IMG/VR virus record: IMGVR_UViG_3300046522_000297
Span: 50,008-114,007 of that record
Length of the DNA: 64,000 bases
Direction: 5' to 3' (one strand)
Source: a virus
The position numbers and the translations under genes were made by a program. The notes under the pieces were generated by a model. It made no database searches and was not told the DNA's origin. It saw nothing but the letters and a program-made list of their open reading frames with translations. Position 1 is the stretch's first letter, and every line of letters starts with the position of its first letter. Shown here in pieces: positions 10-12,519 of the stretch.

Positions 10-372
10 ATGTCGTATAAACAGGTCATTGTCCTCCGCAAGGATTTGAACATGCGGAAGGGCAAAATGGTGGCTCAAGGCAGCCATGCAGTAGAAATGG
101 TCATCGACATAGCTCTGGGTAATACAACCTTCAAAACCTACCGAGATAACTGGAAGGCTGAAGGTAGGACCAAGATCTGCGTCAGTGTAGACTCCGAAGC
201 TGAACTCGTTGAAATTTACCGCAAGGCAAGGGACGCAAAGCTTCCATGTTCCATAGTAACGGACGCTGGTAAAACTGAGTTCGGCGGAGTTCCTACTAAA
301 ACAGCAGTCGCTATTGGGCCCGCACCATTGAGCGACGTCGATAAAATCACTAGTCATTTAAAGCTGCTATAA
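10..372 (+). CDS. pth2: peptidyl-tRNA hydrolase, Pth2 (archaeal/eukaryotic-type) family
   Basis: KQVIVLRKDLNMRKGKMVAQGSHA N-terminus and DAGKTEF...TAVAIGP...VDKITSHLKLL C-terminus are the PTH2 signature. Confidence 0.95.
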   Translation: MSYKQVIVLRKDLNMRKGKMVAQGSHAVEMVIDIALGNTTFKTYRDNWKAEGRTKICVSVDSEAELVEIYRKARDAKLPCSIVTDAGKTEFGGVPTKTAVAIGPAPLSDVDKITSHLKLL

Positions 373-791
373 TGTACGGAAAAGATACCCTGACATTGCG
401 AGATCGGTTTGAGATCTTCAAGCAACATAAAGATCAGATCAAGGCAGACTTCGAGGAATTCATCACCTCATCGGCGCACCCCTTGGAGATTCGCTGGCAG
501 ATGTTTAAGGACGCACCGGCTGATCTGAGTAATCACTTAGAATCTATTTACGGTGGGCTGGATGAGATCCTGGTGCCAGGACTTGGCAGTAGGGACATTA
601 ACTGGCCCGATGAGATAATTAACGCAGAGAGACACCAGCGCATTAATCTAATAGGTGAAGTCGAAGAGATTTTCTCCAAACCTAAGGCATACAGGGTCAA
701 ATACCCCACAGCTTATGAAGAAGGTTTCCTAGACAAAATAAAAGAACAGATTTTGAAAGATAACATTAAGTCGTTTATCTACGACTGGTAA
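372..791 (+). CDS. hypothetical protein
   Basis: 139-aa ORF coupled to pth2 (TAATG overlap). Confidence 0.75.
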   Translation: MYGKDTLTLRDRFEIFKQHKDQIKADFEEFITSSAHPLEIRWQMFKDAPADLSNHLESIYGGLDEILVPGLGSRDINWPDEIINAERHQRINLIGEVEEIFSKPKAYRVKYPTAYEEGFLDKIKEQILKDNIKSFIYDW

Positions 792-799
792 AGAAATAC

Positions 800-874
800 G
801 CCCGCTTATCCTTAGTGGTAAAGGTCCGGCTTTGTAACCCGGGTTCAGAAGTTCGATTCTTCTAGTGGGCACCA
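800..874 (+). tRNA. tRNA-Thr(UGU)
   Basis: Acceptor GCCCGCT/AGTGGGC, loop TT-TGT-AA, T-arm AGAAG-TTCGATT-CTTCT, encoded CCA; one mismatch in anticodon stem. Confidence 0.85.
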
Positions 875-891
875 AACACTATAACAATAAA

Positions 892-1110
892 ATGCATATC
901 GAAATTAGAGACAATGGAAGCTTGAGTGCGGACACCGTGCAGATTGCTCTGCCTAACGGTGAGATCTTCACTGCAAGCATGAACGAGCTATGCACTTTCC
1001 GTTTGGAAGAGCTTTTGCCTAAGCTCGGCCATACAATAAAAGTCGTTGATTGGGCTTTTGAGCACGATGTCGCTGAGTTCGATAATATCAAACTAGGACG
1101 GCAACGATGA
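892..1110 (+). CDS. hypothetical protein
   Basis: ORF after tRNA-Thr; start moved to ATG 892 because the track start lies inside the tRNA. Confidence 0.65.
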   Translation: MHIEIRDNGSLSADTVQIALPNGEIFTASMNELCTFRLEELLPKLGHTIKVVDWAFEHDVAEFDNIKLGRQR

Positions 1111-1319
1111 ATGACTTTACATGGCGCCCGATTACTATCGGAGACACTGTAGCAACAGCTAAAACTGGATACAACGATCTTATCCGTGGGAAAGTCGTTG
1201 AGTTTGGTGAGAAGATGATTGTTATAGAAAGAGTAGGGCCTGGGTATCCTCGTAAATTCCGTAGGTACCCGGAACAAGTAATTGTAGTAGAACCTTCTTT
1301 TAACCCAGTAAATACATAA
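1107..1319 (+). CDS. small SH3/KOW-like phage protein (paralog of 1931-2134)
   Basis: ITIGDTVA...GKVV...RRYPEQVIVV pattern shared with 1931-2134. Confidence 0.65.
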   Translation: MNDFTWRPITIGDTVATAKTGYNDLIRGKVVEFGEKMIVIERVGPGYPRKFRRYPEQVIVVEPSFNPVNT

Positions 1320-1325
1320 AATTAA

Positions 1326-1934
1326 ATGGTAGACCTCGCTAAGGTAGCACAGTATGACTTCGTAGTTCTCGTTGATAAATCCGGTTCCATGGCAACTAAA
1401 GACGTTAAGTCAGGTTGGTTTGGATCCAAATCCCGTTGGGAAGCGATCGAGAAAACCGCCATCGTCTTTGCTCAGGACCTGGAGAAGATTGATAAGGATG
1501 GTATTGGTTTGGTTCTATTCGGAGGAGATGTCAAAGCCTATCCGAATAGCAACGCAGATCAGGTAGCAAAGGCGTTCTCCTATAACTCCCCTGGTGGTGG
1601 AACTCCCCTTGCAGAAGCCCTGCAGACCGCGTTGGATCTATTGAAGGATTCCAAGAAGAAGAAATTCATCATGGTATTCACTGATGGCGCGCCTAATAAT
1701 CGCCAGGCTGTGAAAAACCTCATCATCAATCAGGCTAATGGCCAATCCACGGACGACGAGTGTACCATCCTATTCGTACAGGTAGGCAACGACACCGGGG
1801 CTACCAAGTTCCTTACGGAGCTGGATGATGATCTCAAGGGAGCGAAATTCGATATCGTAGACGCCAAGACTGCGGCTGAAGCCGAGAAGTTCTCGTCGAC
1901 TCTGGAGCTGGTTGTCCACGCTATCGGAGATTGA
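1326..1934 (+). CDS. von Willebrand factor A (vWA) domain protein
   Basis: MIDAS motif DKSGSM, GGTPLAEAL, VFTDG. Confidence 0.9.
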   Translation: MVDLAKVAQYDFVVLVDKSGSMATKDVKSGWFGSKSRWEAIEKTAIVFAQDLEKIDKDGIGLVLFGGDVKAYPNSNADQVAKAFSYNSPGGGTPLAEALQTALDLLKDSKKKKFIMVFTDGAPNNRQAVKNLIINQANGQSTDDECTILFVQVGNDTGATKFLTELDDDLKGAKFDIVDAKTAAEAEKFSSTLELVVHAIGD

Positions 1935-2134
1935 GAGTGGCAGAAGTCAAAAGAGACGCAGCAGGGTGTGACATCCGGGTAGGGGACATTGTTCTCTACT
2001 CAAAAAGCGAAGGCACCGATCTTTACAGAGGTAGAATCCTCCGGCTGACCGAGCTCCAGGTTCACATCGATAATGCTGGTCGATGGCCTGCTGTAGTAAA
2101 ACGTTATCCGGGTCAAGTTGTTGTTATAGGGTAA
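1931..2134 (+). CDS. small SH3/KOW-like phage protein (paralog of 1107-1319)
   Basis: DIRVGDIVL...GRI...KRYPGQVVVI. Confidence 0.6.
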   Translation: MRVAEVKRDAAGCDIRVGDIVLYSKSEGTDLYRGRILRLTELQVHIDNAGRWPAVVKRYPGQVVVIG

Positions 2135-2141
2135 CAGTGTA

Positions 2142-2603
2142 TTGGTTAAAAGAACAAAAATATCGGACGAAGATATAGCCGAAGCAGTAAAACACTCCCG
2201 GAGCTATTTTCAAGTACTAGACCGCTTAGGGAGAAAACGAGCCGGGGGTTCCCATTCTCATATAAAACTAAGAATAGAGCGGGCTGGTATAGATACCTCC
2301 CATTTTACCGGGCAGGGATGGAATAAAGGTGGTCATTCCAGGAACCGGAAAAGTATTGAGGAAATACTTGTTTTAAGAGAGAGTGGGGTCAGATCTAAGC
2401 CCCATCAATTAACTAGAGCACTTATATCTCTTGGTATAAAACATGAGTGCCAGAAATGTGGTCAGGGTCCTGAGTGGATGGGTAACCCTCTTACTCTAGA
2501 CGTAGATCACATAAACCAAAATTGGCTGGATGATAGGGCTGAAAATTTAAGGTTTTTATGTCCAAATTGTCATAGCCAATTTTCTAGAAACCTGATACAA
2601 TAA
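2142..2603 (+). CDS. HNH endonuclease
   Basis: CQKCG...LDVDHINQNWLDDRAENLRFLCPNCHSQ; lies immediately upstream of tRNA-Leu. Confidence 0.9.
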   Translation: MVKRTKISDEDIAEAVKHSRSYFQVLDRLGRKRAGGSHSHIKLRIERAGIDTSHFTGQGWNKGGHSRNRKSIEEILVLRESGVRSKPHQLTRALISLGIKHECQKCGQGPEWMGNPLTLDVDHINQNWLDDRAENLRFLCPNCHSQFSRNLIQ

Positions 2604-2612
2604 CATTTCAAT

Positions 2613-2695
2613 GGGGATGTGGCTAATGGAAATTGGTACACCTAACACTCTTAGAAAGTGTGCTTTTACGAGTTCGAGTCTCGTCGTCCCTACCA
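2613..2695 (+). tRNA. tRNA-Leu(UAG), atypical D-arm and short variable region
   Basis: Acceptor GGGGATG/CGTCCCT, anticodon arm ACACT-CTTAGAA-AGTGT, T-arm ACGAG-TTCGAGT-CTCGT, ACCA end. Confidence 0.8.
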
Positions 2696-2715
2696 ACAAA
2701 ACAGAGTAAAACAAA

Positions 2716-2916
2716 ATGACAACCAAAGTTACTATTAGTCTTGACACACCGAATCACCAGGATGCACTGGTTGAGCAAGTAAACCCTGCTGATGGTAAGG
2801 TATGGCACGGAGCTAGACGTCTCAAAGCAGGCGAATCTGCTGAGTTCTATGTCCACTCCAGTGTGTCTCTCCGCATCACTGAGATTCCTTCAATCACGGA
2901 ACCTCAATCCAACTAA
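2716..2916 (+). CDS. hypothetical protein
   Basis: 66-aa ORF between two tRNAs. Confidence 0.6.
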   Translation: MTTKVTISLDTPNHQDALVEQVNPADGKVWHGARRLKAGESAEFYVHSSVSLRITEIPSITEPQSN

Positions 2917-2929
2917 TCCCCTCAACAAT

Positions 2930-3004
2930 ATCGCTATCGTCTAATGGTTAGGACTACAGGTTTTCAACCTGTCAATCGGAGTTCAATTCTCCGTAGCGAT
3001 GCCA
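2930..3004 (+). tRNA. tRNA-Glu(UUC)
   Basis: Acceptor ATCGCTA/TAGCGAT, ACAGG-TTTTCAA-CCTGT, GCCA end. Confidence 0.9.
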
Positions 3005-3020
3005 AAACATAGGAGTCCCT

Positions 3021-3434
3021 ATGCTTTTCGTAGAAGTAAATCCTCGTAAGTACAAAGCAGTTCAATTCAATAAATTTGGTGATGTGACAGGCGTATATCG
3101 TGGTTACATCGAAACCAAGGGTAGCACGGTGCAGTATTTCGTCTCGGACGTATGTCCTCGTAGAATGGACTGCAGATTCGCTTACCTGACGCGAACTCAA
3201 GACGGGTTTCAGGAAGTTAAAGAAGGTGATTGGATTCTTACCAATACTAAAAACGGTAAGATTAAGATCCTCCCTAACAAGAAATTCCTGAAAGACTACG
3301 TCGGTTACCATGAGCCTGCACAGTCACCTGAGCCGGTCAGTCAAGTAGTAACCCTACCTCATCGCATCAGCGTAGCTCAACAGGCTGCGTGTATCAAACA
3401 ATACGAGACCGAAAATGCGGCACCGCCGTTATAA
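3021..3434 (+). CDS. hypothetical phage protein (AVQF...VKEGDWI family)
   Basis: RBS AGGAG; motif common in phage accessory proteins. Confidence 0.7.
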   Translation: MLFVEVNPRKYKAVQFNKFGDVTGVYRGYIETKGSTVQYFVSDVCPRRMDCRFAYLTRTQDGFQEVKEGDWILTNTKNGKIKILPNKKFLKDYVGYHEPAQSPEPVSQVVTLPHRISVAQQAACIKQYETENAAPPL

Positions 3435-3633
3435 AGACACTTTGGTTGCACCTAGCTCACTCCTTGGCCAGCTTATGGCTAATAAAGCCGGAGCATCTGC
3501 AATCGAGAAACATTATGACGAAACCACTAAAGCCTGCAAGAAACTGTATGGCGAAGAGAACTATAAGTGGTTCGTTGAAATGCATAGAACCTTTCCTCCT
3601 GAAAACCGTAAACCTGTAGAAAGTACCCAATGA
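3415..3633 (+). CDS. hypothetical protein
   Basis: Overlapping operonic ORF. Confidence 0.6.
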   Translation: MRHRRYKDTLVAPSSLLGQLMANKAGASAIEKHYDETTKACKKLYGEENYKWFVEMHRTFPPENRKPVESTQ

Positions 3634-4025
3634 TCAATATGCACCGTCACTCCGTCAATGTCTCCCGTAAAGAACTCCTTACCAAACTGAAGGAGAACCT
3701 GGCAATCCATCAGAAAGATTACCGCGAAGCCTGTATCGGTTATAAAACCATTTTGGAACATGCCCTTGTGGAGTTTCTTACCAAGTGTAAGAGCCTTAAC
3801 GAAGATGGTGTTTTGAAGCTGCAAATCCCTAACCCTTCCAAGCCCGTCAGCCACGAAAAGGAATATCGAGAAATTATCGACATGATGGAAGTGTCAGTCG
3901 ACGACGTCATCAATCTTGACGCAGAAAGCTTCAAAGCGTATTTCAAGAACGAGTGGTCCTGGTCCAGTGGCTTTAACGCTACTGCAACCATGTACAAGTC
4001 TGCTCTCGGCGGCGCTGTCAACTAA
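3630..4025 (+). CDS. hypothetical phage protein
   Basis: 131-aa helical ORF coupled by ATGA overlap. Confidence 0.75.
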   Translation: MINMHRHSVNVSRKELLTKLKENLAIHQKDYREACIGYKTILEHALVEFLTKCKSLNEDGVLKLQIPNPSKPVSHEKEYREIIDMMEVSVDDVINLDAESFKAYFKNEWSWSSGFNATATMYKSALGGAVN

Positions 4026-4046
4026 ACCTCATCAATTTGGTATAAG
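4018..4046 (+). promoter_or_regulatory. phage promoter motif (TCAA-N~15-TGGTATAAG), first of ~14 copies
   Basis: TGGTATAA(G/T) starts at 4038, 5337, 6504, 6984, 7648, 12239, 16613, 17546, 23724, 25792, 26136, 28553, 28896, 32631, all intergenic and co-oriented with the downstream gene. Confidence 0.75.
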
Positions 4047-4095
4047 AGAAGTGCAGAGAAATCCTCTGCATTTCTTTATGCAAAGGACGACTCAA

Positions 4096-4308
4096 ATGAA
4101 AAAAGCAATCGTAGCACTTCTGATCAGTATGTTGATGATCGCACCGGTCAACGCCATGGTGTGGCTCCATCCCAGCGGCGTTTGGGTTAGTGACACTTGT
4201 GTGACCCCGACTGGTCAATGGTTCACCTTTATTAACACCTTTGGGCCTGTCGGTGCAAACTGCTGGTTCAATATCAATGGTGTAACTTTTTATGGCAAAT
4301 TTTCATAA
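4096..4308 (+). CDS. small secreted protein
   Basis: RBS AAGGA, signal peptide MKKAIVALLISMLMIAPVNA, two Cys. Confidence 0.7.
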   Translation: MKKAIVALLISMLMIAPVNAMVWLHPSGVWVSDTCVTPTGQWFTFINTFGPVGANCWFNINGVTFYGKFS

Positions 4309-4319
4309 GGACTGATATA

Positions 4320-4466
4320 ATGGGATTATTCCTCTGGTGCTTAGCGATCATCTTCGCAGTATGGGTTCTATGGATGATTATTAAACCTCGTCGTCCCAGT
4401 CATTCCTCAGACGGGGCTGAAGTTATCGCAGCCATTATTAGTGTCGTCGCTGACATAGTCGATTAA
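4320..4466 (+). CDS. small membrane protein (48 aa, below ORF-track cutoff)
   Basis: RBS AAGGA, hydrophobic N-terminal helix MGLFLWCLAIIFAVWVLWMII. Confidence 0.55.
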   Translation: MGLFLWCLAIIFAVWVLWMIIKPRRPSHSSDGAEVIAAIISVVADIVD

Positions 4467-4477
4467 CAGGAGTTATA

Positions 4478-4666
4478 ATGAGTATCTCTGTCGTTGTAGT
4501 ATTGGTAGCAATCGTAGTTTTGGCGTGGGTCATTTACAAAAATGCATATCGTTCCAAGTTACCGTTCGCAACGCCTAAGGTGACTCTTGAAACTCCACGC
4601 AATAACGACGCTGTAAATTATTACGTTCCCCCGGATATGGCCTATTGGCATAAACCCGGGAAGTAA
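4478..4666 (+). CDS. small membrane protein
   Basis: RBS AGGAG, N-terminal TM helix. Confidence 0.65.
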   Translation: MSISVVVVLVAIVVLAWVIYKNAYRSKLPFATPKVTLETPRNNDAVNYYVPPDMAYWHKPGK

Positions 4667-4675
4667 TGCATCAAG

Positions 4676-4753
4676 GGCGGTTTAGCCAAGTTGGTCTAAG
4701 GCATCTGATTTTGATTCAGACATTCCTAGGTTCGAATCCTGGAACCGCTTCCA
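4676..4753 (+). tRNA. tRNA-Gln(UUG)
   Basis: GGCGGTT/AACCGCT, TCTGA-TTTTGAT-TCAGA, TCCA end. Confidence 0.9.
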
Positions 4754-4757
4754 CAAA

Positions 4758-4833
4758 GGGTCTGTAGTTGTAATAGGCAAAACCCTGGGCTCCAAACCCA
4801 GAGACGACGGTTCGAATCCGTACGGGCCCGCCA
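4758..4833 (+). tRNA. tRNA-Trp(CCA)
   Basis: GGGTCTG/CGGGCCC, CTGGG-CTCCAAA-CCCAG, GCCA end; D-stem has U11-A24. Confidence 0.9.
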
Positions 4834-4871
4834 TTCCACCCCTCCCTCAACGTTCAATTAAGGAACATAAA

Positions 4872-5228
4872 ATGGAAGCTAAAACCTTCTCCCGTGATTC
4901 ATTCGTCTATCGTTTCCTGGCATGGCCTACCGGTAACCTGTGGTTTTCCGTGCCATACGATATCTGCCAGCTCCGCCGGGACGTTATCTTGAAGATTTTT
5001 CTGCTGCTCACCATCGTTTCGGCGACGTTCGGGTACGCTTACAGCGTCACATCTTACGTGCTGTACGAGATGAGTCAACTGTTCGGCGGCGTCTTCGGCA
5101 CCCGTGGATTAACAGAGATCGTAAAATTCGGGGGTGCCCTCACCTACATCACCTTGCTGTTTGCAGCTTTGGCAGGGATTTTCTGGGCTCTCGATAAGGC
5201 TCAGAAGTACTTCAGCCGCCGTAAATGA
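4872..5228 (+). CDS. membrane protein; reading frame stays open past the TGA to TAA at 5324
   Basis: Two TM helices; 31 further in-frame sense codons after TGA 5226-5228. Confidence 0.7.
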   Translation: MEAKTFSRDSFVYRFLAWPTGNLWFSVPYDICQLRRDVILKIFLLLTIVSATFGYAYSVTSYVLYEMSQLFGGVFGTRGLTEIVKFGGALTYITLLFAALAGIFWALDKAQKYFSRRK

Positions 5229-5411
5229 GAACGTGATGGTCTTCCCCCGAAACCCAACGGCCCGGTCAAGGAAATGTACCTGAGCTGGAAGAACAAACTC
5301 TGCTATCGAATTGACTTTCAATAATTAGCGGATCTCTGGTATAATAACAGTGTGAGGAACTTTAATGTTCCTTGCACTGTTCAAATATAAACCTCAAATT
5401 TTAGGATTAAC

Positions 5412-6074
5412 ATGGCGAAAGTAAAAAAATCAATCACCCGTCTGTTGGCAGAACGTAAAGCCCTGGAAGATCGTATCAACAAGGCTACTTCGGTGCCCTT
5501 CATCGGTACCATGAAAGGTACCCGCACTCCGACTGTGGTTGGCTACACCGGCCATGGCGTTGAGCAAATCTCCAATCTTTTCAAGGGAAACCTGGACAAA
5601 GTGCGGGGTCTGATCAGTTATCACAACCGTATCACTGCGGCTCTGGTGGAATCGAACGCTACCACCAAGGTCAAGATTGGTGAAGAAGAGCTGACCGTCG
5701 CTGCAGCTATCGAGCGCAAGAAGTCGATTCAATTCGACAAGCGCCTCCTGGCTACACTGATCAATCAGTCTTCGCAAGTTCAAGGTCAACTCGATCTGGC
5801 AAACCGTCAGGTTGAAGAAATGATCGAACGCCAGCTGATCAACATCTATGGTTCTGGTGACAAGGCAAAGCTGACTGCGGACCAACGCAAAGAAACCGAA
5901 GATGCGATCCGCGCCCAGCATCAACAGGCCCCGATCGATCCGAACAAGATCGCTGACCTGGCTCGTGCTGAAATGGAGCGCATCAGTAAGTTCGAAACCG
6001 AAATCGACTTTGTCCTGTCGGAAAGTAACGCCAAGACGGAAATCGAGCTCGACGACGAGACTCCCGTAGCCTAA
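5412..6074 (+). CDS. helical/coiled-coil protein resembling the DIP1984/DUF6847-like group
   Basis: SITRLLAERKALEDRI...SNATTKVKIG..LTVAAAIERK...IDP...FETEIDFVLSESNAKT pattern; host-like codon bias; own promoter at 5337. Family label is from recall. Confidence 0.65.
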   Translation: MAKVKKSITRLLAERKALEDRINKATSVPFIGTMKGTRTPTVVGYTGHGVEQISNLFKGNLDKVRGLISYHNRITAALVESNATTKVKIGEEELTVAAAIERKKSIQFDKRLLATLINQSSQVQGQLDLANRQVEEMIERQLINIYGSGDKAKLTADQRKETEDAIRAQHQQAPIDPNKIADLARAEMERISKFETEIDFVLSESNAKTEIELDDETPVA

Positions 6075-6081
6075 AGACTTC

Positions 6082-6448
6082 TGCCACACCACATTAGTTG
6101 AACCATAACCTGACGAACAGGTGATCATCCGGTTCAGGGCCGAGAACTAAAAACGGCCAACCTAAGCCCCCTAAGAAGGGCTGCCTAAAGATAATGGAGC
6201 TCTTCACTGAGCAATCGACTTCTAATCGATCCGTATATAATGCATATACTTTAAATTAAAGTCAACGTTCATTACCTCAAAGGTCAAAGGTTAAAGCTCA
6301 AACTTCAAGCTATCATAAGTTTAAAGTTAAAAGCTCAAGTATTACAACGCTCTTTCAAACCCATGGTTAACGTTTATGAGGGTTCAGGAATAGCCTCTAC
6401 TTGTACGCATGGCTGTCAGCGTTGTGGTTCAACTAATGTGGTGTGGCA
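6082..6448 (+). ncRNA. candidate structured ncRNA with heptamer-repeat tract and embedded tRNA-like arms
   Basis: 28-bp terminal stem (one G.U) plus 5 bp, internal hairpins, 13 AAAGNTY-like units, followed by an intrinsic terminator. Confidence 0.75.
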
Positions 6449-6450
6449 CA

Positions 6451-6480
6451 GATCCCTAGTTTCGACTGGGGATTTTTTTT
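6451..6480 (+). terminator. intrinsic terminator
   Basis: ATCCCTAGT-TTCG-ACTGGGGAT plus T-run. Confidence 0.85.
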
Positions 6481-6517
6481 AGCTCAATTAAGCTCATCCG
6501 TTTTGGTATAAGATTAG

Positions 6518-6590
6518 TGTCATGTAACTCAGCGGTAGAGTGCTAGAACCTTTCTAGAAGTCGCCAGTTCGATTCTGGTCACGGCCTCCC
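6518..6590 (+). pseudogene. degenerate tRNA-like element (5-nt anticodon loop, no CCA)
   Basis: Intact D-arm ACTC-AGCGGTA-GAGT and T-arm GCCAG-TTCGATT-CTGGT; anticodon arm CTAGA-ACCTT-TCTAG; mismatched acceptor. Confidence 0.65.
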
Positions 6591-6623
6591 CGAAAGGGGA
6601 GTTTATTTAGTCAAACAGGAGAT

Positions 6624-6929
6624 ATGTCAGTGCCTATTTCATTTCAAGAAATTCAAAATAACATTGATCAAAGCATCGTGTCTAGAGTGATCCGAACCAT
6701 TGACGGTAAGTTGTCGGATCCCACTTACGCAAGGGAATGGATGTGTAATTCGGATACTAACCCAACTTATCGATTTGCAATCCCCGGCTCGGTGACCGAC
6801 TACGAAAAGAAGGCTATTATTAACACGTATATGAACGTGGGATGGGGCACCGTGGAGGTTAAAAACTCCTCTGAAAACGGTGAGCGTCCCGGTATGGTCG
6901 GTGTTGTATTGAAACAGCACGCTGAATAA
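6624..6929 (+). CDS. hypothetical protein
   Basis: RBS AGGAG, followed by terminator 6936-6961. Confidence 0.75.
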   Translation: MSVPISFQEIQNNIDQSIVSRVIRTIDGKLSDPTYAREWMCNSDTNPTYRFAIPGSVTDYEKKAIINTYMNVGWGTVEVKNSSENGERPGMVGVVLKQHAE

Positions 6930-7054
6930 GTTCTTCCCGGTCTAAGGCCGGGCTTTTTTTTAGCTCAATATATTTGTGTTATTTGGTATAAGCTAAATGT
7001 AACAAAGTATCGTTACCTTTTTTTTGGCCAACCGAGCTTATATGGAGACATTAA

Positions 7055-7630
7055 ATGTCTGCAGTAACCAAACGTAATATCAGTGCATTGAAGGGCATGA
7101 AGCAGTTCGCTGTTCGTAGCCTGGAGCAACGCCAGCTCCGTCACCCCGACCACCGCTTCCTCTCGGTGGACGCCAAGCCTTTCCCCTGTCCTGTCAACGC
7201 AGTTATCAAAGCTGCTTCGGATATCGATTTCCGAGCGACCAAACCCAAGGATCTCCCCGAGGGTATGAACGCTCCTCGCAAGCGTGCAACTCCGGCAACG
7301 TACACTCCTCGTACTAACCTCGGCAAGTCCAAGTGGGATTTCCAGTATATGGAATCGGGTAACAGCATTGCCATCCCGGTCCAGGTATCGGAAAGCAATG
7401 ATTTCCAGTTCCGCCGTGAAGTGGCTCGTATCAAGGGTTGCGGTCGCGGAGTTCTCCGCTACCAAAAGAACCGTGGTTACGTCGACCCCGGTTTCCTGAT
7501 TCAGACTTCTGTCGAAGACATCGTCATCAAGACTTTACCTAACGGAGATCCAGTCACGAAACCCCATGTTGTCTTCTGGCGTATCGACGGCACTCCGATC
7601 GACCCTGCGTATCTCGCAGGTTCAATTTAA
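7055..7630 (+). CDS. hypothetical basic protein
   Basis: RBS GGAG, behind promoter motif at 6984. Confidence 0.75.
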   Translation: MSAVTKRNISALKGMKQFAVRSLEQRQLRHPDHRFLSVDAKPFPCPVNAVIKAASDIDFRATKPKDLPEGMNAPRKRATPATYTPRTNLGKSKWDFQYMESGNSIAIPVQVSESNDFQFRREVARIKGCGRGVLRYQKNRGYVDPGFLIQTSVEDIVIKTLPNGDPVTKPHVVFWRIDGTPIDPAYLAGSI

Positions 7631-7711
7631 ATAACCGCATATCTTTTTGGTATAAGGAAAGTAGAGAAGAGCATATCTTCTCTTTTTGCGCTTAACTAGC
7701 CATCTCCTTTT

Positions 7712-8062
7712 ATGGAAATCCCAACCAAGATCCTCGAAGCTTTGGGTTTCTCAAAGCCTAGAGAGGTTCTGAAGATTCACACTGATACTATCAATACTTC
7801 CCAGGTCAACATGATCGAGGAGTATTGCCCACCCGGTTGTGATCCTAAGAGAACCAAGCTGGCAATCAGCAAACGCGGTCGTAAGGACAGAGGTAACTTT
7901 GTTCAAGTCTACTACCGTGCAGGTAACAAACTCGCCCCTCAGCCAACGGCCGAGGACAAATCGAATCAATTCTGGAGAGAACTTAATGAGCTCGTCGAAC
8001 GAAACCAAAGCCGTGGTGAACGTCCACGCAGTCAAGAAAACCGAAACGGAAGCCGCCGCTGA
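7712..8062 (+). CDS. hypothetical protein
   Basis: Behind promoter motif at 7648. Confidence 0.6.
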   Translation: MEIPTKILEALGFSKPREVLKIHTDTINTSQVNMIEEYCPPGCDPKRTKLAISKRGRKDRGNFVQVYYRAGNKLAPQPTAEDKSNQFWRELNELVERNQSRGERPRSQENRNGSRR

Positions 8063-8147
8063 CAAAGCGTACTACGCTGCCAAGCGCGTCCGTAAGGGCA
8101 AAACCGCCAAGAAGCGCGCCGGCAGTGGCCGTGGTCACGCAGCATAA
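7986..8147 (+). CDS. small basic protein ending in Ala-Ala
   Basis: RBS GGAG before ATG 7986; host-like codons. Confidence 0.55.
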   Translation: MSSSNETKAVVNVHAVKKTETEAAADKAYYAAKRVRKGKTAKKRAGSGRGHAA

Positions 8148-8160
8148 CTAAGGAAATACA

Positions 8161-8352
8161 ATGGAAATCCTGCACAAGCTGTTCCCGTTCCTGGGCCAGG
8201 TCAAATCCCCGGCCGATAAAAAGGCCCCGAAGGTCTACCCGTTCTCGTCGACGCGTCAACACACCCGTGCAATCTGTCAAGGTTTGCACAACGTCCGGGT
8301 CAACGTCGCCGGCAAGCACAACACCGTGCTGCAAACGGGGGATGCCAAGTAA
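8161..8352 (+). CDS. hypothetical protein
   Basis: RBS AAGGA; host-like codons. Confidence 0.65.
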   Translation: MEILHKLFPFLGQVKSPADKKAPKVYPFSSTRQHTRAICQGLHNVRVNVAGKHNTVLQTGDAK

Positions 8353-8364
8353 GTAGCGCCGGAC

Positions 8365-8393
8365 TTGCAGTATAGTGACTACGTTGCTATAAT
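8365..8393 (+). promoter_or_regulatory. host sigma-70-type promoter
   Basis: TTGCAG-17nt-TATAAT with extended -10 TG, upstream of the tRNA pair. Confidence 0.7.
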
Positions 8394-8406
8394 GTAAGTC
8401 TTCTGT

Positions 8407-8494
8407 GCGCCGGAAGCCCTATTGGTCGGAGGCCCTCGACTCATAATCGAGCTGCGAAAGCACGTTGCGGGTTCAAAGCCCGCCCGGCGCACCA
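8407..8494 (+). tRNA. tRNA with CAU anticodon (Met/Ile2) and long variable arm
   Basis: GCGCCGG/CCGGCGC, CTCGA-CTCATAA-TCGAG, 15-nt variable region with TGC-GAAA-GCA hairpin, ACCA; A at position 8. Confidence 0.75.
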
Positions 8495-8512
8495 ATAAAT
8501 AGTTGTTAAGAT

Positions 8513-8600
8513 GGACCGGAAGCCCTACTGGTCGGAGGCCCTCGACTAATAATCGAGCTTCGAAATCACATTGCGGGTTCAAAGACCGCCCGGTCCACCA
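8513..8600 (+). tRNA. tRNA with AAU anticodon (Ile), paralog of 8407-8494
   Basis: GGACCGG/CCGGTCC, CTCGA-CTAATAA-TCGAG, 15-nt variable region, ACCA; one T-stem mismatch. Confidence 0.7.
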
Positions 8601-8619
8601 ACTCCGTAATTATAATAAG

Positions 8620-9042
8620 ATGCCTCAAGAAGCACAGTTTCCATTCGAAGGATATAGACTTTACATAGTACTTCACAAAAAAGAAGGCCGACGTATGGCT
8701 AACTTAGTGAAGAAAGACACGGGTAGTCAAGTAAGAACTACCATGTCGTACGCCCGTTATCTCATGTCAGTTCATTTAGGTAGAGTTTTGACCGAAGATG
8801 AGCATGTCGATCATAAAAATGACGATAAGTTGGATGATAGAATCGATAATTATCAGATTTTAACCCCAGCACAAAACCTTGAAAAGTATAATCGGTCACA
8901 CCCTAAAAAAGTCGTAGATGTAAGATGTTTTTGGTGTGGCACTACTTTTCAAATGGACAAAAGAAACGTCCCATTTAGGCCCAATGCTTGTTGCAGTAGA
9001 AAGTGCGCTAGAGCTAAGCAGTTTAACAGAGACAAAAGTTAG
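8620..9042 (+). CDS. HNH endonuclease with C-terminal Cys motifs
   Basis: EHVDHKNDDKLDDRIDNYQILTPAQN; CFWCG...CCSRKC; start placed at ATG after the tRNA. Confidence 0.85.
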   Translation: MPQEAQFPFEGYRLYIVLHKKEGRRMANLVKKDTGSQVRTTMSYARYLMSVHLGRVLTEDEHVDHKNDDKLDDRIDNYQILTPAQNLEKYNRSHPKKVVDVRCFWCGTTFQMDKRNVPFRPNACCSRKCARAKQFNRDKS

Positions 9043-9077
9043 TAGTCCTCTCACACAATCCGTTTTAGGAGTTTCGC

Positions 9078-9500
9078 TTGGAAACGTCCAATTCCCCAAC
9101 GGTTCTTACCGTTCCAGAGATCGAAGCAATGCTTCGTATCACCACCGCACAAGTAACAATTACGAAAGAGGTCGAAGGTGTAAACCTCGATGACCTCTGC
9201 CGTAAACTGTTGCAAATGCATGAAGAGGCGGCAAACGATCCGAACATCGCAGCTCGTTTCCCTCCCAGAACCATTGATGTCAAGGTGCAGTTCAGCAACA
9301 ACAAGATCGGCGCAATCAAAATTGTCCGTATGCTTACGGGTCAGGGTTTGAAAGAGTCGAAAGATCTCTGTGATTATGCGGCCCGTGATTTCGGAGGACG
9401 TAGCTCCGTAGTTTTACGTGGAATCCGCCCCGAGGCCTTTACGGCAGTCCAGCGAGAAACCCCTTTCATGGGTGATGTCTCGGTATCTGAACACAACTAA
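9078..9500 (+). CDS. protein with ribosomal protein bL12 (L7/L12) C-terminal-like domain
   Basis: NNKIGAIKIVRMLTGQGLKESKDLCD matches bL12 KI.VIK.VR..TGLGLKEAKDLV; RBS AGGAG before TTG. Confidence 0.8.
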   Translation: METSNSPTVLTVPEIEAMLRITTAQVTITKEVEGVNLDDLCRKLLQMHEEAANDPNIAARFPPRTIDVKVQFSNNKIGAIKIVRMLTGQGLKESKDLCDYAARDFGGRSSVVLRGIRPEAFTAVQRETPFMGDVSVSEHN

Positions 9501-9570
9501 GTTTCACCCCGCCGAGGGCTAAGAGAAATCTTGGCCCTTTCTTCTTTTCGTCCAACCAAATAGGACTCAT

Positions 9571-11685
9571 ATGAATCACTCCGTAGCAACTATCCCGCGT
9601 CGTCCGCTCGCTACCGCCGTCACTCAAGCTCTGTCGGCTCTCAAGACGGTACGTGCTGCTGCAGCTGAGGATGAGTCGAATTCGGTCAACACCGAACTCG
9701 CCATTTCCCCGGAACTCGACGCTGCAGTCGAAGACGTCATCGCCCAAGCCAAGGCCCTGGAACTCCTGGAGCCGGTCAAGGCAGAACTGCCGAAAGTCGA
9801 CCTGAGCACGGTCGTCGAATTCGTCCCGGTCAAGAACAAGATCGGCCGCTACCGCATCGTCTCGACGAAGCTGCGCCAGTTTATCCACGATTCCACCGAT
9901 ACCGGCTTCATGTCGGAAAAGATGCTGGAATCGATCCACGACAGCGAAGAGCAGAAAGCAGCCCGTCTGCGTATCTCGCTTATCGATCTGGAAGCGATGT
10001 TCCGCAGCTTCCACGACTTCGCCTCGATCGATGAAGACGACGTCAAGTCCTCGGCTTCCGGCCTGACCTGGCCCGAATACAAGACGATGTTCGACGACCT
10101 GAACCAGCGTTATAGCACCTGGCTGGAAATGCGTCGTGCTGCTGCACAAGCCAAACATGACGCACACATGGCTCAGTTCAACAGCGGCGTGGCGGACTAC
10201 GAAAGCACGCTCGTCGGCCTGAAGGGTGAATCGATCAAGCGTCTGAACGGCACGGCGATTCCGTACGTGTTCGATATGGGTGGCCAGAAGATCGTCGGCA
10301 AGATCACCAATGCCCGTGAACAAGAACACCCGATGATGGGTAAGTGGATAGAAGTCCGTTACGAAATCCACACCCACAACGGCATCGGCCTGTCGAGCAC
10401 CAACCACAAGCTGGATATCCCGATCTACGAAGGCGTAGCTTCGCTGGAATCGCTCGGCCTGACCCGCCTGGACAAGTGCTCGGAAAGCGTGAAAGCTGCC
10501 CTGATCGCCCGTGGCGAGAAGTACCTGAAGTTGCACGAGAAGCCGGCGTACGTCATGTCGACGGGCAATATCACCCGCAAGGAAGGCCGCAACACGTACC
10601 AATTCAACGCCAAGGGTCGCGCCATGGTCGATATCCTCGGCCATCGTCAGATGGATACGAACTACTACGCACACTTCCACGTGGCGGATCCGGACGGCAT
10701 GGAACCGGACGACTACATCCCGATGTCGAAGGTCGACGACTACATCAAGATGAGCTGCAGCCCGTACCTGTACGGCTTCTCGTTCAAGGCCAAACTCTGG
10801 GGCGAAATGCTCGTCGACCAAATCACGGAAATCCAGTTCCGTGACGACGTCTACGACAAGCTGGTCCTGGACGATGCCACCAAGCGCATGATCTTCGCTC
10901 AAGTCACCGATACCGGCGACGCTGACACAGATCTGATCGCTGGTAAAGGCGTCGGCTGCATCGCCCTGCTGGAAGGTCCTCCGGGTGTCGGTAAAACCCT
11001 GACGGCGGAAGCTGTCTCGGAAACCCTGAAGCGTCCGATTTACTATGTGTCGGTCGGCGAACTGGGTACCAGTGCTCGTTCGCTGGAAACCAACCTGAAG
11101 GAAATTCTGGAAATCGCAGCTTCCTGGAATGCCATTCTGCTGCTGGACGAAGGTGACGTGTTCCTGGAACGCCGTGACAGCCACGATCTGGAGCGTAACG
11201 CCATGGTTGCCGTGTTCCTGCGTCTGCTGGAGTATTTCCCGGGCATCATGTTCCTGACGACCAACCGTGCCGACAACATCGACCCGGCCTTCGAGTCCCG
11301 CATCACGCTTTGCATCCACTACAAGGATCTGGACGCAAGCAGCCGCTTCAAGATCTGGACGAACCTGCTGAATGCTGCTAAAATCAAGAGCATCAATACG
11401 GAAGCCATCGATCGTCTGTCGCACTTCAAGCTGAACGGTCGTCAGATCAAGCAGGTGATCAAGTCGGCGGGTGCACTGGCTCGTTTCGAGAAGCGCAACC
11501 TGGAATACGACGACTTCATGACCGTCATCCAGCAGAAGGAAGACTTCAAGAAGGCCACCGTCTACCAGCTCGGCAAGGGTCTGTCTGACGACAAGGCAGC
11601 AGCACCGGTGAAGGAAGTGGGCCTGGTCCGCCGTGTGTGGAACGCCCTGGTCAACAACGGCCAGAGCCTGGGTCAAGGCCAGTAA
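9571..11685 (+). CDS. AAA+ ATPase
   Basis: Walker A GPPGVGKTLTAE, Walker B ILLLDEGDVFLERR, FLTTNR...DPAFESRI, LNGRQIK. Confidence 0.92.
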   Translation: MNHSVATIPRRPLATAVTQALSALKTVRAAAAEDESNSVNTELAISPELDAAVEDVIAQAKALELLEPVKAELPKVDLSTVVEFVPVKNKIGRYRIVSTKLRQFIHDSTDTGFMSEKMLESIHDSEEQKAARLRISLIDLEAMFRSFHDFASIDEDDVKSSASGLTWPEYKTMFDDLNQRYSTWLEMRRAAAQAKHDAHMAQFNSGVADYESTLVGLKGESIKRLNGTAIPYVFDMGGQKIVGKITNAREQEHPMMGKWIEVRYEIHTHNGIGLSSTNHKLDIPIYEGVASLESLGLTRLDKCSESVKAALIARGEKYLKLHEKPAYVMSTGNITRKEGRNTYQFNAKGRAMVDILGHRQMDTNYYAHFHVADPDGMEPDDYIPMSKVDDYIKMSCSPYLYGFSFKAKLWGEMLVDQITEIQFRDDVYDKLVLDDATKRMIFAQVTDTGDADTDLIAGKGVGCIALLEGPPGVGKTLTAEAVSETLKRPIYYVSVGELGTSARSLETNLKEILEIAASWNAILLLDEGDVFLERRDSHDLERNAMVAVFLRLLEYFPGIMFLTTNRADNIDPAFESRITLCIHYKDLDASSRFKIWTNLLNAAKIKSINTEAIDRLSHFKLNGRQIKQVIKSAGALARFEKRNLEYDDFMTVIQQKEDFKKATVYQLGKGLSDDKAAAPVKEVGLVRRVWNALVNNGQSLGQGQ

Positions 11686-11695
11686 CAAGTATTAC

Positions 11696-11780
11696 GGGAG
11701 CATGGTGGAACTGGGATACACTACAGTCTTAAACACTGTCGCCTTCGGGATTGCGGGTTCGACTCCCGCTGCTCCCACCA
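11696..11780 (+). tRNA. tRNA-Leu(UAA)
   Basis: GGGAGCA/TGCTCCC, ACAGT-CTTAAAC-ACTGT, long V-arm, ACCA. Confidence 0.92.
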
Positions 11781-11841
11781 AAACAACGGCCGGCTAGGTT
11801 AACTCTTAGTCGGTCTTTTAATTTGTGAAGTTCTTTTAAGA

Positions 11842-12207
11842 ATGGATATTAGTATGTCGAAGCAAGAAAAAATCGCAGCAGCAAAAGCAACGAAGACCTC
11901 CAAGCCGACCGTGGCCCAATTCACGGGTTCGCTCGACACGACGGCGTTCGAAAAGGACTCTGTCTCCCCGGCGGATCGTTTCTGGAACATCAAGGGCACG
12001 AGCTACTATAGCCGTGACAAGGGCCTGCTGAAGGGTCTGCGTCGTGTCCTGAACCTGAAGGCAGGCGTGAACGAAGACGTGGCTGACGTCATCGAACACG
12101 ACAAGAACGACAAGGAAATCATCGTCGACAAAATCGCTGCTGTCCCGGCGAAAGACTGGCCGTTCAAGATCACCAAGGGCCCGGCTCATCCGCGCCTGAA
12201 CGGCTAA
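11842..12207 (+). CDS. hypothetical protein
   Basis: Strong host-like codon bias. Confidence 0.7.
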   Translation: MDISMSKQEKIAAAKATKTSKPTVAQFTGSLDTTAFEKDSVSPADRFWNIKGTSYYSRDKGLLKGLRRVLNLKAGVNEDVADVIEHDKNDKEIIVDKIAAVPAKDWPFKITKGPAHPRLNG

Positions 12208-12489: not shown

Positions 12490-12519
12490 CAACCTTCCAT
12501 AACTTCAAAGGGAAATCCT

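What the first reader, a model, noticed from the sequence alone, without database searches (positions are those of the whole stretch)
6194..6234. tRNA D-arm plus anticodon arm (UCU) embedded inside the ncRNA
Seen: ATGG-A-GCTC(TTCACT)GAGC-A-ATCGA(CTTCTAA)TCGAT-CCGT, a three-way junction with a D-arm-like hairpin, a single-nucleotide spacer and a perfect 5-bp/7-nt anticodon arm. The loop CTTCTAA is identical to that of the phage tRNA-Arg(UCU) at 14786. There is no T-arm or CCA. Inference: a tRNA-mimic module that could be a decoy or sensor for host anticodon nucleases (PrrC/RloC/PARIS-type defences); its cleavage could open the RNA and release or activate the partner protein.
Basis: partly seen in the sequence, partly recalled or inferred. 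Interest (0 to 1): 0.85.

Follow-up and report, generated by a model that had tools for sequence, protein, structure and literature searches.

The report
tRNA-half mimic inside phage RNA
A widespread, uncatalogued phage RNA that always follows a small helical-protein gene carries here two hairpins that copy the D-arm and anticodon arm of a tRNA; related phages, including T5-like ones, carry the same kind of module with other 'anticodons', so a decoy for tRNA-cutting bacterial defences is plausible and testable but not shown.

Summary
The sequence is as described. GCTC(TTCACT)GAGC, one A, then ATCGA(CTTCTAA)TCGAT lie at 6199-6230, and the loop equals that of the phage's tRNA-Arg(UCU). The proposed ATGG/CCGT junction stem is not supported, because it overlaps a third hairpin that has a compensatory change.

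The module sits in the variable domain of a ~370-nt RNA (6082-6452). I found this RNA behind homologues of a 220-aa helical protein (T5.085 family) in about 100 distinct loci, including T5-like, rV5-like, Otagovirus and Bacillus phages. An earlier agent of this scan found the same family on other DNA. It matches no Rfam family.

In one large part of the family the variable domain holds tRNA-like parts:
- hairpins with 7-nt C-N-NNN-A-A/C loops and varying middle triplets;
- D-arm plus anticodon-arm units;
- YrlA-like T-arm/D-arm elbows (Rfam YrlA, E = 1e-8 in one homologue).

Six homologues in five lineages keep G30 A31 C32 and U36 A37 A38 U39 C40 while the lower stem covaries. UAAUC is the published recognition and cleavage motif of the PARIS nuclease AriB.

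So tRNA mimicry is supported. The decoy function is inference, and the idea that cleavage releases the protein has no support. U33 is not conserved, and the tRNA model does not score the window's RNA.

The parts
5412..6074 (+). Partner gene: 220-aa helical (coiled-coil) protein of the T5.085 family
   Evidence: ORF. No Pfam match; phrog_1491, labelled 'tail fiber', E = 5.6e-52. 159 homologues and 736 phage records. AlphaFold model pLDDT 82, long helical hairpins, no informative fold match.
6082..6109 (+). 5' strand of the closing helix of the ncRNA
   Evidence: Pairs with 6421-6448 in the MFE fold. Whole RNA -142.2 kcal/mol, z = -8.8. Invariant in L004/L005. Equivalent end-to-end helices appear in the folds of the homologues.
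6199..6212 (+). D-arm-like hairpin GCUC(UUCACU)GAGC
   Evidence: Sequence. The loop changes and the stem does not in L004. The same GCUC-N6/7-GAGC unit precedes the anticodon-like arm in L091 and L141, and GUUC/GAAC (compensatory) does so in L033. The loop lacks the G18-G19 of real D loops.
6213..6213 (+). Single A spacer, the position-26 equivalent
   Evidence: A in window, L004, L091 and L141, G in L033; also A in the phage's tRNA-Arg.
6214..6230 (+). Anticodon-arm-like hairpin AUCGA(CUUCUAA)UCGAU carrying the motif GAC-N3-UAAUC
   Evidence: Sequence. Loop identical to that of tRNA-Arg(UCU) at 14786. The lower three pairs covary while G30-C40 and A31-U39 stay fixed. The motif is about 40-fold enriched in the 5' halves of the family's RNAs. 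Model R1, built from these modules, hits real tRNAs in register.
6233..6249 (+). Third hairpin GUAUAU(AAUGC)AUAUAC
Evidence: Pair probability 0.81-0.87. Compensatory U6236>G with A6246>C in L004.
6276..6339 (+). Tract of about nine 7-nt units of the type YCAAAGN
   Evidence: Sequence. This is the most conserved feature of the family in the seed alignment and part of the profile that finds the RNA in the other loci.
6361..6412 (+). 3' hairpin domain (CCAUG...CAUGG)
   Evidence: Aligned with the CYNRG...CYNRGCUG domain of the homologues. Part of the nhmmer profile.
6421..6448 (+). 3' strand of the closing helix
   Evidence: the self-match of the two arms, 94% complementary.
6450..6482 (+). Intrinsic terminator
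   Evidence: 11-bp stem plus T run; conserved in L004/L005.

Best explanation
The 32 nt at 6199-6230 are a mimic of one half of a tRNA: the D arm, position 26 and the anticodon arm, which stack into one limb of the L shape. It is displayed in the variable domain of a conserved phage RNA.

The scaffold consists of a long closing helix, a tract of 7-nt repeats and a 3' hairpin domain. It is always encoded directly behind a T5.085-family helical protein, with which it probably forms a particle.

The module keeps what a protein that reads the anticodon limb of ANN-decoding tRNAs would see: C32, U36-A37-A38, the A31-U39 and G30-C40 pairs, a D-type stem and an A at position 26. Positions 33-35 are free to vary.

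The most likely use is as bait. It would compete with host tRNAs (or the phage's own) for a tRNA-directed host factor, most plausibly a defence nuclease of the PARIS AriB kind or another anticodon nuclease, and so blunt tRNA depletion during infection.

Shown: the hairpins, their conservation and covariation, the tRNA-like register, the fixed motif, the family context. Inferred: binding of any host factor, the decoy effect, the role of the partner protein.
For: 1. Real structure. Substitutions against L004 fall only in the loops. On alignment A5, 97.7% of cells pair, 7 of 9 pairs change on both sides, and 0 of 500 shuffles reach that.

2. Objective tRNA likeness. Model R1, built only from ncRNA modules (window, L004, L091, L141), finds genuine tRNAs exactly at their positions 10-43. 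Examples are window 14795-14829 inside tRNA-Arg (23.3 bits, E = 0.004) and L065:2911-2945 (31.5 bits, E = 3e-5), plus more than ten others (against the tRNA coordinates).

3. Homologues hold fuller tRNA mimics at the same place. L141:1718-1776 matches Rfam YrlA at 49.2 bits, E = 1e-8, and is followed by a D arm plus an anticodon-like arm (tRNA model positions 10-42). L073 matches YrlA at E = 1e-4. L091 has a D-like hairpin, an anticodon-like hairpin and a T-arm-like GUGG(UUCGAAU)CCGC.

4. Loops of pattern CU...A. make up 8 of 51 stable 7-nt-loop hairpins in the variable domains. Controls: 2/53 on the reverse complement, 0/28 in the 3' halves, 3/118 in the partner gene. With looser criteria the count is 10, against a shuffle mean of 1.6.

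5. GAC-N3-TAATC occurs 6 times in 17 kb of 5' halves, always in this hairpin, against 15 in 788 kb elsewhere; by my reading about 8 of those 15 are anticodon arms of tRNAs or tRNA-like elements, five of them checked against tRNA calls. Only 7 of 182 distinct tRNAs in the loci have it.

6. PMC12409363 reports that AriB cleaves at U36AAUC|A41, that UAAU is shared by its targets, that U39>A abolishes cleavage, that in an AlphaFold 3 model the second AriB subunit faces the D loop, and that viral tRNAs might also act by competition.

7. The phage's own ANN-family tRNAs (Asn, Thr, Ile, Ser, Arg-UCU) have C, G or A at position 39.

8. The motif is not the partner protein's site. Only 6 of 101 distinct RNAs carry it, while all have the protein.

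9. The pair lies in or beside tRNA gene arrays in many phages.
Against: - The Rfam tRNA model, like every other Rfam model, finds nothing in the window's RNA even at E <= 10.
- The D-like loop has 6 nt and lacks G18-G19.
- U33, nearly invariant in tRNAs (175 of 182 here), is A in L004, in T5-like phages and in L033, and C in L091.
- Several 'anticodons' start with A (AUA, AAU, ACA, AUG), which bacterial tRNAs hardly use.
- Most family members have no such module; minimal RNAs carry a plain hairpin instead.
- Loops evolve fast between near relatives, which fits weak constraint as well as an arms race.
- In T5, PARIS escape was fully explained by three tRNAs expressed from plasmids.
- R1 is a short model built from four sequences, and its alignment is fitted to its own structure. 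R1 found L033 and scored the T5-like module, and it rewards the motif; both hairpins had shown up before in a motif-blind hairpin list.
- No expression or binding data could be obtained.
Confidence: 0.4

Rival explanations
1. Decorative or structural hairpins. The module descends from a piece of a neighbouring tRNA gene that recombined into a tolerant variable region. It now serves only as a spacer or folding element, and its tRNA likeness is historical rather than functional.
For: - The locus lies among tRNA genes.
- The variable domain ranges from about 20 to over 250 nt and holds unrelated hairpins in most lineages.
- Both loops change between 92%-identical relatives, and U33 is lost.
- The D loop is degenerate, and the tRNA model gives no match.
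- The ASL stem core UCGA/UCGA also occurs in the two odd tRNAs at 8407 and 8513 of the same phage.
Against: - G30, A31, C32, U36, A37, A38, U39 and C40 stay fixed in five lineages whose partner proteins are only about 30-40% identical, while the lower stem pairs are replaced by compensatory changes. That points to selection on sequence, not only on a stem.
- Only 17% of the U36 tRNAs in these loci have UAAUC, so source bias alone is a poor explanation.
- Module-bearing lineages cluster on the partner-protein tree, which speaks for long retention.
Confidence: 0.3
2. The module is a substrate or a sponge for tRNA-modifying enzymes that read C32, U36, A37 and A38, such as the t6A37 machinery. It would either stabilise the RNA through modification or titrate the enzyme and change host tRNA modification.
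For: - All motif-bearing modules have U36-A37-A38 and C32. From my own knowledge, not tested here, this is the signature of ANN-decoding tRNAs, which receive t6A37.
- The tRNA-like domain of YrlA is modified by tRNA enzymes (TruB, DusA) in vivo (PMC4201824).
Against: No t6A genes were noted near the locus. It does not explain the fixed U39-C40 and G30-A31 pairs. U33 is not kept. No data on modification exist.
Confidence: 0.1
3. The 7-nt loop is a recognition loop for RNA-RNA pairing. It would kiss the RNA's own A-rich repeat tract, an mRNA, or a codon-like triplet on the ribosome.
For: Anticodon-like loops present three to four bases for fast pairing (established for antisense RNAs with YUNR loops; my own knowledge). 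Several loops are U-rich and the repeats are A-rich.
Against: Loop complementarity to the RNA's own repeat tract is no better than for shuffled loops: mean longest match 4.19 against 4.06 nt over 16 RNAs. The fixed positions lie on the 3' side of the loop and in the stem, not in the triplet that would pair.
Confidence: 0.05
4. A host anticodon nuclease cuts the loop, the RNA opens, and the partner protein is released or activated.
For: Only the general features: a tRNA-like bait inside an RNA that is closed by a long helix and encoded with a protein.
Against: A nick in a distal hairpin loop would not open a 28-bp closing helix. Most family members lack the module yet keep the protein and the scaffold, so the core function cannot depend on it. 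The partner protein has no recognisable effector domain.
Confidence: 0.05

Closest known systems
YrlA-type bacterial Y RNAs (Rfam RF02553; Chen et al. 2014, PMC4201824)
   Same: An ncRNA closed by pairing of its 5' and 3' ends that displays a tRNA-like module. Two homologues of this RNA (L141, L073) match the YrlA tRNA-like core itself, and L140 and L142 show the same permuted layout of T arm, capped acceptor and D arm by eye.
   Different: YrlA mimics the T arm, D arm and acceptor, has no anticodon loop, and is encoded next to Ro60 (Rsr). The window's module is the opposite half (D arm plus anticodon arm). The partner is a 220-aa helical protein, not a TROVE protein. The scaffold has 7-nt repeats. 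The window's RNA gives no YrlA match.
GOLLD and ROOL RNAs (large ornate phage and prophage RNAs; bioRxiv 10.1101/2024.12.08.627333)
   Same: Large structured phage RNAs of unknown function, often near tRNA islands. GOLLD sometimes carries tRNAs in its less conserved linker region, just as this family carries tRNA-like parts in its variable domain.
   Different: There is no sequence or model match. This RNA is smaller (about 300-450 nt). It has a dedicated protein partner, whereas no protein partner is reported for ROOL. The embedded elements are partial or permuted tRNA mimics, not whole tRNAs.
Phage T5 tRNA variants that neutralise PARIS (AriB); PMC12409363
   Same: Phage-encoded RNAs from the same tRNA region that deal with a nuclease reading U36AAUC|A41 and the D loop. 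The authors raise competition as a possible second mode of action.
   Different: Those are complete, chargeable tRNAs that escape cleavage through changes at positions 39 and 41 and restore translation. The module here keeps the sensitive UAAUC, lacks acceptor and T arm, and cannot be charged.
tmRNA with SmpB
   Same: A partial tRNA mimic working with a small dedicated protein (my own knowledge).
   Different: tmRNA mimics the acceptor and T arm and is aminoacylated; SmpB replaces the anticodon limb. Here the anticodon limb is what is mimicked, and there is no tag reading frame. ARAGORN, which also reports tmRNA genes, lists none in the window.

Membership tests
tRNA (Rfam RF00005) | Full cloverleaf: acceptor stem, T arm with the T-loop consensus, CCA or a discriminator end | tested here: not met
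   No T arm, acceptor or CCA in 6082-6452. ARAGORN calls nothing there. cmscan gives no match even at E <= 10.
tRNA (Rfam RF00005) | 4-bp D stem, one nucleotide at position 26, 5-bp anticodon stem, 7-nt loop with Y32, U33, R37 | tested here: met
   GCUC/GAGC, A, AUCGA/UCGAU, C-U-UCU-A-A. Model R1, built from such modules, hits real tRNAs at positions 10-43.
tRNA (Rfam RF00005) | Conserved D-loop residues (A14, G18-G19, A21) and an invariant U33 across homologues | tested here: not met
   The D-like loop UUCACU has no GG. Position 33 is A in L004, L095 and L033 and C in L091, against U in 175 of 182 tRNAs.
YrlA / bacterial Y RNA (RF02553) | Permuted T arm, capped acceptor and D arm matching the covariance model | tested here: not met
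   The window's RNA gives no match. Homologues L141 (49.2 bits, E = 1e-8) and L073 (35 bits) match below the gathering score of 69.
YrlA / bacterial Y RNA (RF02553) | Encoded next to a Ro60 (TROVE) gene | tested here: not met
   The adjacent gene is the 220-aa helical protein, with no Pfam match. The other flanking ORFs tested also have no Pfam match. The rest of the genome was not searched for TROVE.
GOLLD / ROOL | Match to the Rfam covariance models | tested here: not met
   No match in the window or in ten homologous loci.
Heptamer-repeat RNA with T5.085-family partner (uncatalogued; also reported by an earlier agent of this scan) | RNA directly downstream of, and on the same strand as, the partner gene | tested here: met
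   The nhmmer profile of the 3' domain hits the + strand downstream of the gene. All 83 hits of the first round did so, as did 39 of 43 genome loci. Unannotated gaps of 360-500 nt follow the gene in the named phages, apart from Clostridium phage D-1873, where no gene is annotated for about 1.2 kb.
Heptamer-repeat RNA with T5.085-family partner (uncatalogued; also reported by an earlier agent of this scan) | End-to-end closing helix, 7-nt YCAAAG-type repeat tract, 3' hairpin domain | tested here: met
   Window fold z = -8.8. Seed alignment. Folds of the homologues.
Substrate mimic of the PARIS nuclease AriB | U36-A37-A38-U39-C40 next to the cleavage site, within an anticodon arm | tested here: met
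   UAAUC is present in window, L004, L091, L141, L033 and T5-like L095. The determinant is taken from PMC12409363. Position 41 is G here, against A in the best substrates.
Substrate mimic of the PARIS nuclease AriB | Binding to or cleavage by AriB, and protection of the phage | not testable with these tools
   Needs biochemistry and plaque assays. The complex-prediction tool takes no RNA.

The most novel reading that the evidence does not exclude
The T5.085-family protein and its repeat RNA form a conserved phage particle that acts as an exchangeable bait platform. Its variable domain displays swappable tRNA parts (anticodon limbs with different triplets, YrlA-like elbows), and these soak up or misdirect the tRNA-targeting immune nucleases of the current host, such as PARIS AriB or anticodon nucleases. 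This would be a second, RNA-decoy layer of counter-defence beside the phage's own tRNA genes.
Probability: 0.2. Interest if true: 0.9.

Novelty: new variant of a known kind. Interest (0 to 1): 0.72.

Why it matters
tRNA-targeting nucleases are now seen as a major arm of bacterial immunity, and phage tRNA genes as the counter to them. A conserved phage RNA that shows only the limb of the tRNA those nucleases read, keeps the very motif that the phage's working tRNAs have mutated away, and varies its 'anticodon' between phages would be a new kind of counter-defence.

It would also give a first functional handle on a very widespread but unnamed phage protein-RNA pair: 736 phage records, among them T5-like phages. 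The pair occurs in T5-like coliphages, and PARIS has been worked out in E. coli with T5, so the idea can be tested with existing strains. It might also explain why T5 deletion variants differ in what they need to escape PARIS.

If the decoy idea fails, the finding still adds a new class of partial tRNA mimic, D arm plus anticodon arm, which complements YrlA and tmRNA.

Tried and rejected
- **Rfam.** Searches of the window (1-20000, then 6082-6452 at E <= 10) and of 26 homologous loci gave no family for the RNA as a whole.
- **DNA similarity.** Searching the RNA and its surroundings against the phage collection gave nothing.
- **Partner protein.** There is no Pfam family and no sequence match to solved structures. 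Foldseek and VIA-align give only generic long-helix matches; the best is 3kdq, a protein of unknown function, at Z 10.5, which is within the range the tool calls common for helical models. The ESM Atlas neighbours are unnamed viral clusters.
- **Whole tRNAs inside the RNA.** ARAGORN finds no tRNA inside any of the 62 homologous RNAs tested.
- **Kissing with the repeats.** Loop complementarity to the RNA's own repeat tract is no better than for shuffled loops.
- **Closing helix by duplex energy.** A duplex-energy test against shuffles was too blunt in AT-rich sequence (median z -2.3). I rely on the folds and alignments instead.
- **T5-like stem pattern in IMG/VR.** A scan for the T5-like stem with a free loop returned about as many hits as I estimated for chance. 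Only ten were T5-like: nine with CATTTAA and one with CACTTAA.
- **Constrained fold.** The constrained fold did not take the constraint and is not used.
- **YrlA 5' motif.** The YGAAA motif near the RNA's 5' end resembles the YrlA motif GNCGAA. The match is loose and I rejected it as evidence.

Full report
**1. What is there**

It contains GCTC(TTCACT)GAGC, one A, and ATCGA(CTTCTAA)TCGAT, flanked by ATGG and CCGT. The 7-nt loop, the D-type stem GCTC/GAGC and the A spacer are the same as in the phage's tRNA-Arg(UCU) at 14786-14859; the anticodon stems differ.

The stretch lies in a 548-nt gap without a credible ORF, between a 220-aa gene (5412-6074) and a tRNA-like element (6518-6587). Bases 6075-6485 fold at -142.2 kcal/mol, z = -8.8 against shuffles. 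They are closed by a helix of about 28 bp (6082-6109 with 6421-6448) and end in an intrinsic terminator at 6450-6475.

**2. Are the hairpins real?**

In the full-length thermodynamic ensemble the two hairpins have probabilities of only about 0.2. The MFE instead pairs this region with the 3' domain, which comparative data show forms its own hairpin. A local fold of 6185-6260 gives three consecutive hairpins.

Comparative evidence settles it. The closest relatives are two IMG/VR contigs with an 88%-identical partner protein and a 92%-identical RNA. Against them, all four substitutions in the 41 nt fall in the two loops (TTCACT to TTAAGT, CTTCTAA to CATTTAA) and none in the stems.

The next hairpin, 6233-6249, has a compensatory U>G / A>C change. 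That stem has a pair probability of 0.004. The closed three-way junction is therefore the one part of the observation I could not confirm.

**3. The RNA is a member of a very large, uncatalogued family**

The upstream protein has no Pfam family. It matches phrog_1491, labelled 'tail fiber', a label I found no support for. It has 159 relatives in the protein collection and matches 736 phage records. These include Tequintavirus (T5-like; the PVP-SE1 record names the T5 homologue T5.085), Vibrio Demerecviridae, Seunavirus PVP-SE1, Pseudomonas Otagovirus, Bacillus Herelleviridae, Lactococcus and Clostridium phages.

Nearly every locus has an ORF-free gap of 270-1000 nt behind the gene. A profile of the RNA's 3' half finds the RNA there on the coding strand: all 83 hits of the first round, and 39 of 43 loci from bacterial genomes. 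In all there are 101 distinct RNAs.

The shared features are an end-to-end helix, an early G+C-rich hairpin, a tract of 7-nt YCAAAG-like units, and a 3' hairpin domain. No Rfam family matches, and I found no paper on it. An earlier agent of this scan reached the same reading of the family on another genome.

The distance from the stop codon to the repeat tract ranges from 79 to more than 400 nt.

**4. The variable domain repeatedly holds tRNA-like parts**

- **Anticodon-like hairpins.** Many homologues have a 4-8-bp hairpin with a 7-nt loop of the pattern C-U/N-NNN-A-N and different middle triplets. Examples are window UCU, L004 and T5-like UUU, L035 GAU, L025 AUA, L048 AAU, PVP-SE1 ACA, L050 UUU, L032 UUG, L065 UGA, L033 GUU and CAU, L091 AUU, L087 AUG, L141 UAU. 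The pattern CU...A. makes up 8 of 51 stable 7-nt-loop hairpins in the variable domains. Controls give 2/53 on the reverse complement, 0/28 in the 3' halves and 3/118 in the partner gene.
- **Units of D arm plus anticodon arm.** L091 has GCUC(N6)GAGC-A followed by a 5-bp stem with a 7-nt loop, and further on a T-arm-like GUGG(UUCGAAU)CCGC. L033 has GUUC(AAUGGUU)GAAC-G followed by CAUGA(CAGUUAA)UCAUG.
- **YrlA-like elbows.** L141 matches the tRNA-like core of Rfam YrlA at 49.2 bits (E = 1e-8) and continues into a D arm plus anticodon-like arm that the tRNA model aligns to its positions 10-42. L073 matches YrlA at E = 1e-4. L140 and L142 have the same permuted layout of T arm, capped acceptor and D arm.

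On a tree of the partner proteins these lineages are concentrated in one large part of the family. Window, L035, L091, T5-like and rV5-like sit together, with L033/L141/L142/L140 as a neighbouring group. The Bacillaceae prophage clade with minimal RNAs lacks such modules.

**5. An objective test of tRNA likeness gives a split answer**

The Rfam tRNA model does not score the window's RNA at all. That fits a D loop without G18-G19 and the absence of a T arm and an acceptor.

I then built a small covariance model (R1) from four ncRNA modules only. It finds genuine tRNAs in the loci precisely at positions 10-43, among them the window's tRNA-Arg, tRNA-Met and tRNA-Ile, at E-values down to 3e-5. It also finds the modules of L033, L087 and, weakly, the T5-like phage.

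On the resulting alignment 97.7% of cells pair and 7 of 9 pairs show changes on both sides; no shuffle of 500 reaches this, and slid controls collapse. That alignment is fitted to the model and includes one real tRNA, so these figures lean towards the structure.

**6. A fixed motif**

In the modules of window, L004, L091, L141, L033 and the T5-like phage, the lower three pairs of the anticodon-like stem covary. The G30-C40 and A31-U39 pairs, C32, and U36-A37-A38 are invariant, and positions 33-35 vary.

GAC-N3-TAATC occurs 6 times in 17 kb of RNA 5' halves. Elsewhere in the loci it occurs 15 times in 788 kb, and by my reading about 8 of those 15 are anticodon arms of tRNAs or tRNA-like elements, five of them checked against tRNA calls. 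Among 182 distinct tRNAs in the loci, 12 have UAAUC and 7 have the full motif.

The three seed lineages were chosen without regard to this motif. The T5-like and L033 hairpins first appeared in a motif-blind list of hairpins, although R1, which rewards the motif, scored them later. Nine T5-like IMG/VR contigs have the loop CATTTAA and one has CACTTAA.

The motif cannot be the partner protein's binding site, since 95 of the 101 RNAs lack it.

**7. Link to a known defence**

PMC12409363 reports that the PARIS effector AriB cuts E. coli tRNA-Lys(UUU) at U36AAUC|A41. UAAU is shared by its targets (Lys-UUU, Thr-UGU, Asn-GUU, Thr-CGU). U39>A abolishes cleavage and A41>C weakens it, and modifications are not needed. 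In an AlphaFold 3 model of the dimer with tRNA-Lys, the second AriB subunit faces the D loop. The authors suggest that viral tRNAs may also inhibit AriB by competition.

That is the same limb of the tRNA and the same fixed nucleotides as in the module. The triplets UUU (T5-like, L004) and GUU (L033) are those of AriB targets, and L141 and L033 even have A41.

In the window's phage the working tRNAs of the ANN family have C, G or A at position 39: Asn and Thr UAACC, Ile and Arg-UCU UAAGC, Ser UAAAC. This is the kind of change that makes T5 tRNA-Lys resistant. The uncharged module keeps UAAUC.

This is a coincidence of sequence with a published determinant, not a demonstration. The host of this phage is unknown. 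Position 41 is G here. In T5, tRNAs expressed from plasmids were enough to restore plating.

**8. Conclusion and odds**

The reading as a tRNA mimic is supported at the level of structure, register, conservation and family context. It must be qualified, because U33 is not conserved and several triplets begin with A, so this is not a faithful copy of particular tRNAs.

| Reading | Odds |
|---|---|
| The module works through mimicry of the anticodon limb towards a tRNA-directed host factor (best explanation) | about 0.4 |
| Of which, a decoy for a defence nuclease, carried on an exchangeable bait platform | about 0.2 |
| A functionless relic of an inserted tRNA fragment | about 0.3 |
| A target or sponge of modification enzymes | about 0.1 |
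| Loop-mediated RNA pairing; no excess complementarity to the repeats | 0.05 |

The last reading is weak because a nick in a distal loop would not open a 28-bp helix, and most family members lack the module.

**9. Limits**

- No expression data and no contigs for the intermediate relatives.
- The partner protein's fold is uninformative.
- Positional homology of the anticodon-like hairpins across the whole family rests on short models and inspection, not on a full-length structural alignment.

Noticed in passing
window 6518-6587: tRNA-like gene right after the ncRNA's terminator. It scores 38.5 bits on Rfam tRNA but ARAGORN does not call it, because the anticodon stem CUAGA/UCUAG closes a 5-nt loop. 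It is conserved in L004/L005 with compensatory T-stem changes, and a second small hairpin terminator follows at 6586-6601.
   Followed up: partly
L141:1718-1791; L073:1219-1328; L140 and L142 variable domains: Homologues of the ncRNA carry a YrlA-like permuted tRNA elbow (T arm, capped acceptor, D arm) without the usual Ro60 gene alongside; the neighbouring gene is the T5.085-family protein. The Rfam YrlA E-values are 1e-8 (L141) and 1e-4 (L073).
   Followed up: partly
L029:1247-1274: An orphan hairpin CUCGA(CUUUUAA)UCGAA, a tRNA-Lys(UUU)-type anticodon arm with the GAC...UAAUC motif. It sits on top of a longer stem between tRNA genes, upstream of the partner gene. It may be a free-standing version of the same bait.
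   Followed up: no
window 8407-8494 and 8513-8600: The two paralogous long-variable-arm tRNAs (CAU and AAU) have the anticodon arms CUCGA-CUCAUAA-UCGAG and CUCGA-CUAAUAA-UCGAG. They share the UCGA stem core and the UAAUC motif with the ncRNA module, and they are the only tRNAs of this phage that keep UAAUC.
   Followed up: partly
G000 contig, 21 tRNAs (window -9805 to 14862): The phage's tRNAs for Asn, Thr, Ile, Ser(GCU) and Arg(UCU) all have a non-U at position 39 (UAACC, UAAGC, UAAAC). No tRNA-Lys lies on the part of the genome that is held (estimated 71% complete).
   Followed up: partly
5' ends of the ncRNAs (window about 6115-6122; many loci): A YGAAA or CGAAA motif follows the 5' strand of the closing helix in most family members. 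[quoted passage not shown]
   Followed up: no
L063:3130-3205, L104:2527-2602, L117:2501-2573, L096:3531-3605: Genuine tRNA genes (Lys-UUU, Thr-UGU, Met, Thr) start within about 50 nt of the ncRNA's 3' end, or overlap it, in several phages. The RNA may therefore often be co-transcribed with tRNAs.
   Followed up: no
window 5412-6074 and its homologues: The label 'tail fiber protein', carried by hundreds of GenBank records for this family, has no support in fold, domain content or gene context (it sits in the early tRNA region). It looks like a propagated annotation error.
   Followed up: partly
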